Below, in pieces: positions 27,704 through 28,145 of a stretch of DNA of 64,000 nt. A program made the position numbers and the translations under genes. This stretch comes from a virus. Below the pieces are notes generated by a model. It did no database searches. It was given only the letters and a program-made list of their open reading frames with translations, and was not told the DNA's origin. Where the stretch lies: UHGV virus genome UHGV-0294963; one strand, given 5' to 3'. Each line of letters begins with the position of its first letter. The stretch's first letter is position 1.

Positions 27704-27766
27704 CTGCTTAAATGCACGAAGGTACAGTGTATAAATTTACAGCCTAACCGACGCAGCATTTAAGCA
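27704..27766. repeat. IR-bracketed intergenic cassette copy C (arms tgcttaaatgc / gcatttaagca; core acagtgtataaatttacag)
   Basis: arms 27705-27715 and 27756-27766; right flank gcatttaagcaaaaccg identical to cassette F. Confidence 0.7.
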
Positions 27767-27778
27767 AAACCGCTGTGC

Positions 27779-28054
27779 TTACTTGTTCACACGCTCTTTG
27801 AGCTTGTAGCTTACCTTGAGCGCCGGTGCCTTGCTAGCATTGATGTCGATAGGCTGCTTTGTCTGAGGATTGATGCCCTTACGAGCTGCTCTCTCACGGA
27901 CTTCGAATGTACCGAAGGACTGAATGGTAACACTGTCACCCTGCTCAAGTGCTTCTGTGATTACATCGAACACACCGTCGATTGCTTTGTATGCCTGCTC
28001 ATTAGTGAAGCCTGCCTTTTCTTTGAGTTTGGAAACGAATTCCTGCTTATTCAT
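27779..28054 (-). CDS. HU/IHF-family histone-like DNA-binding protein
   Basis: [29 protein letters not shown] matches the HU beta-arm consensus ([22 protein letters not shown]), close to Bacillus HBsu; 91 aa. Confidence 0.85.
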   Translation of the reverse strand: [91 protein letters not shown]

Positions 28055-28080
28055 AATATCTAACTCCTTTGTAATAGATT

Positions 28081-28135
28081 AGTGATGTGCGTCTGTAACG
28101 AACGCCCCACGTTCTAATATACAGACGCACATCAG
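28081..28135. repeat. perfect 15-bp inverted repeat (tgatgtgcgtctgta / tacagacgcacatca) with 25-nt loop
   Basis: seen directly between the sheath stop and the HU start; possible RNA stem-loop (processing or attenuation). Confidence 0.55.
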
Positions 28136-28145
28136 TATCACGGTA

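What the first reader, a model, noticed from the sequence alone, without database searches (positions are those of the whole stretch)
27704..28145. HU-family DNA-binding gene inserted between tail sheath and tail tube genes, flanked by two long inverted-repeat structures
The HU gene (27779..28054) sits inside the tail morphogenesis operon. Upstream is a perfect 15-bp stem with a 25-nt loop (28081-28135) immediately after the sheath stop. Downstream is IR cassette C (27704-27766) before the tube gene. The protein is very close to Bacillus-type HBsu in its beta-arm. Phage HUs (for example SPO1 TF1) bind modified DNA or act as transcription or packaging factors. Its embedding between structured elements suggests independently regulated, possibly stoichiometric, expression. 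It is also the obvious candidate ligand for the IR cassettes.
Basis: partly seen in the sequence, partly recalled or inferred. Interest (0 to 1): 0.6.

Follow-up and report, generated by a model that had tools for sequence, protein, structure and literature searches.

The report
Phage HU gene between tail genes
An uncultured group of large tailed phages has permanently inserted a bacterial-type DNA-bending protein gene (HU) between its tail sheath and tail tube genes, flanked by two conserved hairpins, one of them a generic repeated element found all over the genome; this is real and conserved but only a modest variation on things already known in other phages.

Summary
On the minus strand, a 91-aa HU-family gene (27779-28054; PF00216 E 5.6e-31; closest solved structure Bacillus stearothermophilus HU) lies between tail sheath (28146-30803) and tail tube (27120-27668). 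Related metagenomic phage contigs (about 110-166 kb; 13 distinct versions of the locus) keep the order sheath-hairpin-HU-hairpin-tube. HU is under purifying selection (dN/dS 0.05-0.15). An HU-less relative (L009) and the nearest cultured phages (SP-15, HSE3, LIS04) have sheath and tube adjacent, so HU is a derived, clade-specific insertion. The upstream inverted repeat is a single-copy hairpin whose structure is conserved: compensatory changes occur, and one lineage swapped the whole stem. The downstream repeat is one copy of a clade-specific palindrome with a conserved 16-18-bp stem and a fast-evolving interior of about 38 nt. It occurs at least 6 times in the window, between unrelated co-directional gene pairs, so it is generic intergenic punctuation, not an HU-specific element. 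Nothing supports HU as its ligand. Best reading: a captured Firmicutes-type HU co-expressed with late tail genes, with intercistronic hairpins shaping transcript fate. The closest analogues are the structural-block IHF genes of crAss-like phages and T4-type PeSL cassettes. Whether the cassettes act as RNA or DNA remains unresolved. Novelty is modest.

The parts
28146..30803 (-). Tail sheath gene (885 aa from the ATG; the ORF list starts it at a TTG at 30809)
   Evidence: phrog_23 tail sheath E 2.9e-9; 25% identity to the SP-15 sheath; gene callers on identical contigs give 885 aa
28080..28137 (-). IG1 hairpin: 15-bp perfect stem (28120-28134 / 28083-28097), internal loop, apical 5-bp stem GAACG/CGTTC (28110-28114 / 28100-28104). 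Single copy per genome, 8 nt after the sheath stop, no T-run after it
   Evidence: MFE -36.7, z -5.7; present in all 13 distinct relatives, with compensatory UA->CG and U.G variants and a whole-stem replacement in L035/L036; single-copy
28114..28123 (-). TGTATATTAG, spanning the top of the 5' arm and the internal loop of IG1. Exact in 10 of 13 distinct IG1 versions; the core GTATATT is in all 13, including the lineage that replaced the stem (L035/L036: CTGTATATTTAA; L038: CCGTATATTAGG). Function unknown: -10-like box or nuclease site
   Evidence: not enriched genome-wide (7 matches against 6.4 expected)
28064..28069 (-). Shine-Dalgarno AAGGAG of the HU gene, 9 nt before the ATG
   Evidence: read directly from the sequence
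27779..28054 (-). HU-family (DNABII) gene, 91 aa
   Evidence: PF00216 E 5.6e-31, full length; 1HUE E 2e-24; dN/dS 0.05-0.15; only copy in the window
27701..27770 (-). Cassette C: one copy of the repeated palindrome (5' arm 27756-27770, 3' arm 27701-27715, 40-nt interior)
   Evidence: sense fold -34.1 kcal/mol, z -4.3; orthologous copies in 10 of 12 distinct relatives
27677..27683 (-). Shine-Dalgarno AAGGAGG of the tube gene. The leader between the cassette and the ATG is 94-97% conserved between close relatives
27120..27668 (-). Tail tube gene (182 aa)
   Evidence: phrog_4542 E 2e-13; 94-98% identical in L001-L008; dN/dS 0.01-0.04
1116..1177 (+). Cassette A (same family), between two + strand genes of unknown function
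20739..20807 (+). Cassette B (same family), between the SbcC-like and DNA polymerase A genes, followed by TGTATAAT
37750..37815 (-). Cassette D, decayed (one arm intact), at the end of the large terminase gene and upstream of the portal gene
45189..45246 (-). Cassette E, one mismatch in each arm, upstream of a 399-aa DUF285 protein gene
50108..50181 (-). Cassette F (perfect 18-bp arms), after the dUTPase gene, followed by a T-run and a sigma-A-type promoter for a GIY-YIG endonuclease gene

Best explanation
An ancestor of this clade of roughly 110-166-kb uncultured myoviruses captured a Firmicutes-type HU gene and fixed it between the tail sheath and tail tube genes. The clade has T4-like head and tail genes, and its nearest cultured relatives infect Firmicutes. 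Shown: the gene is intact, single-copy in the window, conserved in every clade member examined, under purifying selection, and absent from this position in outgroups. Inferred: because it lies inside the tightly packed late structural block with its own strong ribosome-binding site, it is made late and abundantly, together with sheath and tube. It would then act as a general DNA-bending and compacting protein on phage DNA, in condensation for packaging or in late recombination or transcription architecture. The two inverted repeats are intercistronic hairpins. IG1 is a single-copy structure just after the sheath stop codon whose pairing, not its sequence, is conserved. It most likely forms in the mRNA and marks a 3' end, processing site or attenuation point that uncouples sheath mRNA from what follows. 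Cassette C is one copy of a genome-wide family of repeated palindromes that sit between co-directional genes. Copies followed by a T-run look like terminators placed ahead of early promoters. Copies without one, including C, most likely act as processing or stability hairpins (RNase III-type substrates) or attenuators. Their shared stem sequence would be kept uniform by copying between sites or by an unidentified factor. The cassette is not specific to HU.
For: HU identity. Synteny kept in L001-L008 and down to 67% HU identity in L035-L038. Outgroups with sheath adjacent to tube. Purifying selection. Base composition like its neighbours. Firmicutes-type origin: the best non-clade hits are named Paludifilum, Ruminiclostridium and Clostridiaceae, and the KGINPQT arm is shared with them; the nearest cultured relatives by capsid protein infect Bacillus, Listeria and Streptococcus. 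IG1: 13 of 13 distinct versions fold, with compensatory UA->CG, U.G wobbles on the sense strand and a whole-stem swap in L035/L036. Cassette family: significant enrichment; exact pattern in IMG/VR almost only on contigs of this clade (one odd hit of different spacing, L024); 3-4 exact copies on each of several 118-162-kb metagenome contigs; chance-level in 596 Gb of bacterial genomes. Outer stem base pairs covary: GGTTTT/AAAACC against GGTACT/AGTATC. 65 copies lie between co-directional ORFs, and 10 of the 11 apparent exceptions are HU-tube copies miscalled because a spurious antisense ORF outscored HU. T-run plus promoter follows the early-region copies. Precedents: IHF-family genes in the structural block of crAss-like phages, proposed to compact DNA during assembly (PMC7886860); composite stem-loop/promoter cassettes in T4-type phages (PMC2839356); RNase III targets encoded by Bacillus phage SP82 (cited in PMC4838370).
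Against: There are no expression data of any kind, so late timing is inferred from position only. For the cassettes, the tests meant to separate an RNA hairpin from a DNA-level palindrome were not significant: sense was more stable than antisense in 14 of 26 copies (Wilcoxon p 0.22), and G.U against A.C was 13 against 8 (p 0.38). Neither IG1 nor cassette C has a T-run, and neither is called as a terminator or promoter by the consensus scan. A plain hairpin function does not explain why the 10-nt stem core is nearly invariant at all sites, nor why the interior keeps its length (37-40 nt) while evolving faster than synonymous sites. The near-invariant GTATATT(AG) in the IG1 loop hints at a sequence-specific function such as a promoter, which would change the regulatory picture. 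No RNase III, recombinase or regulator was found among about 35 window proteins scanned, but only 64 kb of a roughly 150-kb genome is in the window.
Confidence: 0.5

Rival explanations
1. Mobile or recombinogenic regulatory cassettes of the PeSL type. The repeated palindromes are primarily conserved linker sequences at which homologous recombination inserts, deletes or swaps genes, and HU reached the tail operon as a cassette-associated module. This overlaps with the best explanation and does not exclude it.
For: Cassettes border three likely acquired genes: HU, a GIY-YIG homing endonuclease and a DUF285 protein. The HU-tube cassette of the L001 lineage has a hybrid stem, with a GGTTTT-type left arm, an AGTATC-type right arm and an unpaired A/C variant in the core, as a crossover between two cassettes would produce. 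Occupancy differs between lineages: the SbcC-PolA junction has a cassette in the window and L001 but an ordinary hairpin in L035, and the HU-tube junction has another hairpin in L037.
Against: HU is flanked by a cassette on one side only, and IG1 is unrelated to the family. Cassettes also sit between core genes (TerL-portal, SbcC-PolA). No indel bounded by two cassettes was seen in the loci examined. Most copies carry no integrated promoter, which is a defining PeSL feature.
Confidence: 0.2
2. HU has its own promoter inside the IG1 hairpin, with TGTATATTAG acting as a -10-like box at the top of the 5' arm. It would then be expressed on its own schedule, and cassette C would insulate the tube gene from that transcription.
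For: GTATATT(AG) is the only unpaired part of IG1 that stays essentially unchanged across 13 versions whose synonymous sites are saturated, and it survives complete replacement of the stem in L035. Similar TGTATAAT boxes precede other genes, for example after cassette B and at about 43.85 kb. In PeSLs the stem-loop commonly overlaps the -10 box or lies between -35 and -10.
Against: There is no conserved -35 or TG-n extension, and the sigma-70 consensus scan reports nothing on the coding strand in either spacer. The motif is not enriched in the window (7 matches against 6.4 expected), and across all related loci it occurs almost only in IG1, so it is not a recurrent promoter type.
Confidence: 0.2
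3. One reading: the cassettes act as DNA (extruded cruciforms or paired protein sites), and the phage HU is their architectural partner, organising or condensing the genome or regulating the adjacent genes.
For: HU proteins prefer distorted DNA such as cruciforms and junctions (established knowledge). The folding tests show no strand bias, so a DNA-level structure is not excluded. The fixed spacing of 37-40 nt between the arms with an unconstrained interior would suit a spacing-dependent DNA-protein complex. HU and exact cassettes were found together in this clade and not in HU-less L009, though L009's contig is only 42.7 kb.
Against: This HU is an ordinary HU by sequence, and nothing in it suggests it can read a 10-bp sequence. 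The L037/L038 lineage keeps HU but has a non-family hairpin at this site. Cassettes are oriented with transcription and lie between co-directional genes, just after stop codons. The first interior base is A in 20 of 26 copies, while its mirror position is T in only 11 of 26. Both points favour a transcription-coupled role. Palindromes of about 74 bp with large imperfect centres extrude poorly.
Confidence: 0.08
4. HU is a virion component, packaged with the DNA as an internal or DNA-associated protein and delivered into the next host.
For: The gene lies in the middle of the virion structural operon, between two virion proteins. The head genes are T4-like (gp20, gp23 and gp13 families), and T4 packages internal proteins.
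Against: The N-terminus is a normal HU helix 1 and shows no added targeting peptide. No virion proteome exists for this clade.
Confidence: 0.1

Closest known systems
Bacterial HU of Firmicutes (B. stearothermophilus HU, PDB 1HUE/1HUU; HBsu) and ordinary phage-borne HU copies such as SPbeta YonN
   Same: Same fold family, same length, alignable end to end. The beta-arm is nearly identical, including R53, R55, R58 and P63. Identity to SPbeta-group YonN is 54-56%.
   Different: In the four sequenced phages inspected, HU sits among replication or transcription genes: ligase in phage G, DNA polymerase/UvsX in 0305phi8-36, a sigma factor in Geobacillus E3, YonO in SPbeta. Here it lies between sheath and tube. 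Arg61 is Ile/Val, a variant shared with several non-clade HUs including one labelled Ruminiclostridium. In clade members helix 2 reads [10 protein letters not shown] instead of the usual xSKKDAxKA.
SPO1 transcription factor 1 (TF1), the classical phage-encoded HU homologue
   Same: A phage-encoded DNABII protein in a large Firmicutes-type myovirus.
   Different: Only distantly similar (E 2.7e-9 against 2e-24 for bacterial HU). It has 91 aa against the 99-residue 1EXE chain. No evidence here for hydroxymethyluracil DNA; a dUTPase is present, and no modification pathway was searched for.
IHF/HU-family genes in the structural gene block of crAss-like phages (Yutin et al. 2021, PMC7886860)
   Same: A DNABII gene conserved inside the virion-structure block of a gut phage lineage, next to tail genes. 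A role in compacting DNA during assembly has been proposed.
   Different: crAss-like phages are unrelated podovirus-like phages of Bacteroidetes. Here the phage is a contractile-tailed, T4-like/SP-15-like lineage, the protein is HU-like and not annotated as IHF, and it splits the otherwise invariant sheath-tube pair.
PeSLs, promoter-early stem-loop cassettes of T4-type phages (Arbiol et al. 2010, PMC2839356; Comeau et al. 2014, PMC4122927)
   Same: Short, conserved, repeated intergenic elements with a stable stem-loop, placed between a stop codon and the next Shine-Dalgarno sequence. Some combine terminator and promoter functions, and they may serve as recombination points.
   Different: A PeSL is defined by a consensus sigma-70 promoter plus a G/C-tract stem-loop, concentrated in hyperplastic regions. 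These cassettes are defined by a 16-18-bp A/T-rich conserved stem around a hypervariable interior of about 38 nt. Most carry no integrated promoter, and they also occur between core genes.
Conserved intercistronic RNase III sites of phages T7 and SP82 (Panganiban & Whiteley 1983 and Mitra & Bechhofer 1994, as cited in PMC4838370)
   Same: Several similar long interrupted hairpins per genome, between cistrons of polycistronic phage mRNAs. SP82 infects a Firmicutes host.
   Different: Cleavage is untested here, and a basal stem of 16-18 bp closing a poorly paired interior is not a classical two-turn duplex. My recollection that the SP82 and T7 sites resemble each other in sequence is from memory and was not checked against the original papers.

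Membership tests
HU/IHF (DNABII, Pfam PF00216) | Full-length match to the family profile above the curated threshold | tested here: met
   PF00216 residues 1-90 of 90, 107.1 bits against a cut-off of 22.4, E 5.6e-31; phrog_379 E 1.9e-31
HU/IHF (DNABII, Pfam PF00216) | Beta-ribbon arm with conserved arginines and the intercalating proline (R-x-R-x-x-R ... NPxT) | tested here: met
   [16 protein letters not shown] aligns with [16 protein letters not shown] of 1HUE. R61 is replaced by I/V in all clade members and in several bacterial HUs
HU/IHF (DNABII, Pfam PF00216) | Dimer that bends DNA | not testable with these tools
   Needs biochemistry. No structure prediction was run, because sequence identity to solved HUs is already high
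HU as opposed to IHF | Closer to HU than to IHF subunits, implying sequence-non-specific binding | tested here: inconclusive
   PDB search: HU 2e-24 against IHF-alpha 2e-11. NCBIfam proteobacterial equivalogs do not separate them (HU-beta 3.5e-21, IHF-alpha 8.5e-21, both below their cut-offs)
SPO1 TF1-type phage HU | Specific sequence relationship to TF1 | tested here: not met
   1EXE E 2.7e-9, much weaker than bacterial HUs; 91 aa against a 99-residue chain
SPO1 TF1-type phage HU | Phage DNA containing hydroxymethyluracil, which TF1 prefers | not tested
   Only a dUTPase was identified. The rest of the roughly 150-kb genome is outside the window
PeSL (promoter-early stem-loop cassette) | Repeated, sequence-conserved intergenic motif able to form a stable stem-loop | tested here: met
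PeSL (promoter-early stem-loop cassette) | Consensus sigma-70-type promoter as an integral part of the motif | tested here: not met
   The promoter is not part of the conserved unit. Only some copies are followed by one (cassette F and its orthologues by AACTTCGTA-N15-TGTTATAAT, cassette B by TGTATAAT). No promoter is called at cassette C. The interior evolves faster than synonymous sites
PeSL (promoter-early stem-loop cassette) | Association with insertions, deletions and replacements of genes between close relatives | tested here: inconclusive
   Cassettes border HU, a homing endonuclease and a DUF285 gene, and one hybrid-arm cassette exists. No indel bounded by two cassettes was seen, and whole genomes were not available
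Intrinsic (Rho-independent) terminator | G+C-rich hairpin with a short loop, followed directly by a T-run | tested here: not met
   IG1 is followed by CTAATCTATTAC and cassette C by AGAACAGTTAAAATC; neither is listed by the scan. Early-region cassettes of the GGTTTT/AAAACC type do have a T-run, so that subset passes the T-run criterion
RNase III processing site (T7/SP82 type) | Intercistronic, long interrupted double-stranded RNA hairpin | tested here: inconclusive
   IG1 has 15 + 5 bp with an internal loop and is conserved by compensatory change, which fits. The cassettes have a 16-18-bp basal stem, but interior pairing is weak and not conserved (mean z -1.0), and there is no significant sense-strand bias
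RNase III processing site (T7/SP82 type) | Cleavage by host RNase III | not testable with these tools
   Needs an in vitro cleavage assay or end mapping

The most novel reading that the evidence does not exclude
The phage-encoded HU and the genome-wide palindromic cassettes work together as a phage chromosome-organising system. In this reading the cassettes extrude as cruciforms, or act through their transcripts, and HU bridges or bends them late in infection to condense the roughly 150-kb genome for packaging or to set up late-transcription architecture.
Probability: 0.07. Interest if true: 0.7.

Novelty: new variant of a known kind. Interest (0 to 1): 0.37.

Why it matters
Sheath and tube are among the most rigidly linked gene pairs in contractile-tailed phages, so a nucleoid protein gene fixed between them across a whole clade implies that HU must be made with, and roughly as abundantly as, the tail proteins. 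With the IHF genes of crAss-like phages, this would be a second, independent gut-phage lineage that places a DNABII protein in its structural block. That strengthens the view that such proteins have a late role in DNA compaction or packaging. Separately, the cassette family is a clean, clade-restricted example of a repeated intergenic palindrome with an invariant stem and a hypervariable interior of fixed length. It could be used to study how phages punctuate long operons, and whether such elements drive gene shuffling. Neither point overturns current understanding, and both need a cultured host or metatranscriptomes before they can be tested.

Tried and rejected
1. Nucleotide search of the locus against GenBank phages found no match, so there is no close cultured relative.
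2. Rfam, with gathering thresholds on the whole window and permissive thresholds on the locus, found nothing relevant. There are no tRNAs.
3. I looked for a promoter hidden in the cassette interior (TGTAAAnTTATACAC-like centre, TAnnnT boxes). Rejected: the interior does not align in register across copies. Between genomes with dS 0.2-0.3 it is only 62-65% identical while the arms are 100% identical, so it is not under sequence constraint.
4. Interior self-complementarity is only weak (mean z -1.0) and is lost in close relatives such as L028 and L091. The 'one long hairpin' picture from the window copy therefore does not generalise. What is conserved is the 16-18-bp basal stem.
5. Strand-asymmetry tests meant to prove an RNA-level structure for the cassettes were not significant. 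My earlier impression from fewer copies did not hold.
6. The T4-type late promoter TATAAATA occurs once on the wrong strand, below expectation.
7. TGTATATTAG as a recurrent promoter box: not enriched and essentially confined to IG1.
8. Ile61 as a phage-specific, TF1-like adaptation of the DNA-binding arm: rejected, because the same residue occurs in several non-clade HUs.
9. An N-terminal capsid-targeting peptide on HU: none, the N-terminus is a normal HU one.
10. The cassette motif in bacterial genomes as a clue to host or origin: 16 scattered singletons with arbitrary spacing in 596 Gb, which by my own estimate (about 9 expected) is near chance. Five marine metagenome hits are one unrelated coding sequence.
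11. A candidate cassette-binding or cleaving protein in the window (RNase III, dsRBD, recombinase, sigma factor, regulator): none among about 35 proteins scanned.
12. Literature search for HU genes in phage tail modules found no direct precedent. The nearest is the crAss-like IHF block.
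Full report
WHAT IS THERE. All relevant genes are on the minus strand. A long ORF (28146-30809, 885 aa from the ATG at 30803) matches the PHROG tail sheath family. The 182-aa ORF at 27120-27668 matches a tail tube family. Between them, the 91-aa ORF at 27779-28054 matches Pfam Bac_DNA_binding (HU/IHF) over its whole length (E 5.6e-31). It has a good Shine-Dalgarno sequence (AAGGAG, 28064-28069). The closest solved structure is Bacillus stearothermophilus HU (E 2e-24). 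SPO1 TF1 is much more distant (E 2.7e-9). The window holds no second HU gene, and the composition of this one resembles its neighbours.

THE TWO INVERTED REPEATS. The upstream repeat (IG1) has 18-nt arms at 28080-28097 / 28120-28137, of which 15 bp are perfect. The 22 nt between the arms contain a further 5-bp hairpin, so the whole is a long interrupted hairpin. It starts 8 nt after the sheath stop codon (MFE -36.7 kcal/mol, z -5.7). No T-run follows it, and the consensus scan calls neither a terminator nor a promoter there. The downstream repeat (cassette C, 27701-27770) has a 10-nt exact core, GCTTAAATGC / GCATTTAAGC. That core is strongly over-represented in the window: 21 matches with up to 1 mismatch against 4.3 expected, and 0 of 100 shuffles reach that number. 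It forms paired copies at about 1116, 20739, 27701, 37750 (decayed), 45189 (decayed) and 50108. Rfam has no family for either structure.

RELATIVES AND SYNTENY. The locus has no nucleotide match among GenBank phages. The sheath protein, however, recovers ten IMG/VR loci, most from contigs of 111-167 kb. Eight of them (L001-L008) encode HU (79-93% identical) between sheath and tube. The more distant L009 (tube 85% identical) goes straight from sheath to tube across a 135-nt spacer that holds an ordinary hairpin plus a T-run. A protein search found about 31 HU clusters of at least 60% identity on contigs of up to 166 kb, then a drop to 57% or less; the named hits below that are HUs from Firmicutes (Paludifilum, Ruminiclostridium, Clostridiaceae). 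Contigs carrying the most divergent clade HUs (67% identity) still show sheath-HU-tube, next to genes that hit the T4 gp23, gp13 and portal gp20 families. The nearest cultured relatives by capsid protein (28-30% identity) are Bacillus phages HSE3 and SP-15, Listeria phage LIS04 and a Streptococcus phage. In SP-15, HSE3 and LIS04 the tube gene follows the sheath gene after 11-36 nt. HU is therefore a derived insertion that defines this uncultured clade. It is maintained by purifying selection (dN/dS 0.05-0.15 against 0.01-0.04 for the tube gene). The Arg61-to-Ile change in the DNA-binding arm is not a phage novelty, because it is common outside the clade, for example in a Ruminiclostridium-labelled HU. 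The N-terminus shows no added targeting peptide.

IG1 IS A CONSERVED STRUCTURE. Thirteen distinct versions of the sheath-HU spacer were recovered, and all fold into a strong hairpin at the same place. The stem shows a compensatory UA-to-CG change (GCGTCTG/CAGACGC to GCGCCTG/CAGGCGC) and several U.G pairs on the coding strand. In L035/L036 the entire stem has a different sequence. IG1 occurs once per genome. One segment at the top of the 5' arm and in the internal loop, TGTATATTAG (28114-28123), is essentially invariant. Its core GTATATT even survives the stem replacement. It is neither enriched in the window nor recurrent elsewhere in the clade. Its role, whether a -10-like box or a nuclease site, is open.

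THE CASSETTE IS A GENERIC, CLADE-SPECIFIC REPEAT.
- Distribution: the exact pattern (arms plus a 30-45 nt gap) hits 24 IMG/VR stretches, almost all on contigs of this clade. Metagenome contigs of 118-162 kb carry 3-4 exact copies each. The 16 hits in 596 Gb of bacterial genomes are scattered singletons with arbitrary spacing; my own estimate is that about 9 would be expected by chance.
- Neighbours: in the window the copies lie between unrelated gene pairs. These are unknown/unknown, SbcC-like/DNA polymerase A, HU/tube, large terminase/portal, unknown/DUF285 protein, and dUTPase/GIY-YIG endonuclease.
- Position: across all loci, 65 copies lie between co-directional ORFs. Ten of the 11 apparent exceptions are HU-tube copies for which my script picked a spurious antisense ORF. 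Five 'intragenic' hits are one unrelated marine coding sequence.
- Stem: it extends to 16-18 bp, and its outer part covaries in two flavours, GGTTTT...AAAACC and GGTACT...AGTATC.
- Downstream context: copies in the early region are followed by a T-run and a Firmicutes-type extended -10 promoter. Others are followed directly by a ribosome-binding site (tube) or by a TGTATAAT box (DNA polymerase).
- At the HU-tube junction: 10 of 12 distinct relatives carry the cassette. The L037/L038 lineage carries a different hairpin of about 70 nt.

WHAT THE CASSETTE INTERIOR SHOWS. In the window copy the 40 nt between the arms fold further, giving an almost continuous hairpin. This does not generalise. Interiors do not align in register, are only weakly self-complementary on average (mean z -1.0), and are nearly unstructured in the closest relatives. 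Between genomes whose flanking genes differ by dS 0.2-0.3, the interior is only 62-65% identical. The arms are 100% identical and the leader down to the tube ATG is 94-97% identical. Function therefore resides in the stem and in the fixed spacing of 37-40 nt, not in the interior sequence, which rules out a conserved promoter or RNA motif inside it. The tests that could have shown an RNA-level structure for the cassettes (sense against antisense stability; G.U against A.C mismatches) were not significant. The only directional signals are position relative to genes and an asymmetry at the stem-interior junction: the first interior base is A in 20 of 26 copies, while the mirror base is T in only 11 of 26. 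Many of those copies are orthologues and not independent.

HOW IT MOST LIKELY WORKS. Shown: a functional HU gene fixed between sheath and tube, a structurally conserved hairpin after the sheath gene, and a generic repeated palindrome before the tube gene. Inferred: HU is transcribed with the late structural genes and made in quantity, serving as a DNA-bending and compacting protein for phage DNA. The same role has been proposed for the IHF-family genes that mark the structural block of crAss-like phages. The hairpins most plausibly act in the transcript as intercistronic punctuation. IG1 would be a 3'-end, processing or attenuation element for the abundant sheath message. The cassettes would be terminators where a T-run follows, and processing, stability or attenuator hairpins elsewhere. 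This is comparable to the stem-loop component of PeSL cassettes in T4-type phages and to the RNase III targets of Bacillus phage SP82. The uniform stem sequence could reflect copying between sites. One hybrid-arm cassette hints at recombination between copies. It could also reflect an unidentified factor, but none was found among about 35 window proteins. I put about 0.5 on this composite reading.

COMPARISON WITH WHAT IS KNOWN, AND NOVELTY. Phage-encoded HU genes are common: 185 GenBank phage records match this protein. In the four examples inspected, however, they sit among replication or transcription genes. A DNABII gene inside a structural block is known from crAss-like phages. Repeated stem-loop regulatory cassettes are known from T4-type phages. 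New here are the lineage, the exact position (splitting the sheath-tube pair) and the anatomy of the repeat: an A/T-rich invariant stem, a hypervariable interior of fixed length, and no integral promoter. I rate this a new variant of known kinds, of moderate-to-low interest (0.37). It is solid and conserved, but not surprising in principle, and it cannot be tested mechanistically without a host or transcript data.

Noticed in passing
window 50052-50098, 55080-55126, 57441-57487, 59864-59910, 62926-62972 (minus strand); a similar one on the + strand at about 16113-16150: A family of strong Firmicutes-type promoters, AACTTCGTA-N15-TGTTATAATATAGATAC (TRTGnTATAAT extended -10). Each is followed by a Shine-Dalgarno sequence and an ATG, in front of small genes. 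This is probably the early promoter class of the phage.
   Followed up: partly
window 16091-16104 (+), 24877-24890 (+), 37655-37668 (+), 63452-63465 (-); 57-nt repeat 16057-16113 / 24843-24899: A third intergenic motif, GCGTTAGCGTGCTA, occurs 4 times against 0.31 expected. Two copies lie within an 88%-identical 57-nt repeat. At 16.1 kb it sits directly upstream of an early-type promoter, and at 63.45 kb it is part of a 27-nt inverted repeat. Function unknown.
   Followed up: partly
window 43939-43948 (minus strand): The only other exact copy of the IG1 loop motif TGTATATTAG, again just after a stop codon (gene 43957-45156). A TCGTGTATAATATG box follows, inside a small CTTTCG/CGAAAG hairpin. 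The same box follows cassette B at about 20810.
   Followed up: partly
L001/L002/L007/L008 13296-13353 (HU-tube cassette of that lineage): Hybrid cassette: the left arm is of the GGTTTT type with an AAC core variant, and the right arm is of the AGTATC type with an ATT core, leaving mismatches. This looks like the product of recombination between two different cassettes.
   Followed up: partly
L037 6277-6377 and L038 (HU-tube spacer): This HU-bearing lineage has, in place of the cassette, a different branched hairpin of about 70 nt (outer stem GGTTATCTAA/TTAGATAAAACC). Whether that phage has its own repeat family could not be checked from the 12 kb available.
   Followed up: partly
window 49574-50032 (minus strand): A free-standing GIY-YIG-type homing endonuclease gene (PHROG hits only) sits immediately downstream of cassette F and an early-type promoter.
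   Followed up: no
window 56086-56973 (minus strand): A 295-aa protein whose N-terminus matches Pfam Tad8 (type II Thoeris inhibitor), E 2.9e-12. It is a possible anti-defence gene in the early region.
   Followed up: no
window 7320-9257 (+) and 53436-54197 (-): A 645-aa protein combines Peptidase_M23, GH25 muramidase and Fn3-associated domains, as in a lysin or tail lysin against a Gram-positive wall. A separate protein has a radical-SAM domain. Both fit an anaerobic Firmicutes host.
   Followed up: no
window 3088-4047 and 4057-4995 (+): Tandem paralogous genes (319 and 312 aa; 72% identical over an 82-nt stretch of DNA) with no Pfam match.
   Followed up: no
window 24720-24769: A perfect-looking bidirectional terminator (18-bp stem, 4-nt loop, T-run on the + strand) sits where the + strand replication block meets the - strand structural block. 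Relatives L035 and L037 have the equivalent.
   Followed up: no
HU residues 15-24 (window 27983-28012): All clade HUs read [10 protein letters not shown] in helix 2, where most non-clade HUs listed have xSKKDAxKA. The usual lysine pair at positions 18-19 is lost. The consequence for flanking-DNA contacts is unknown.
   Followed up: no
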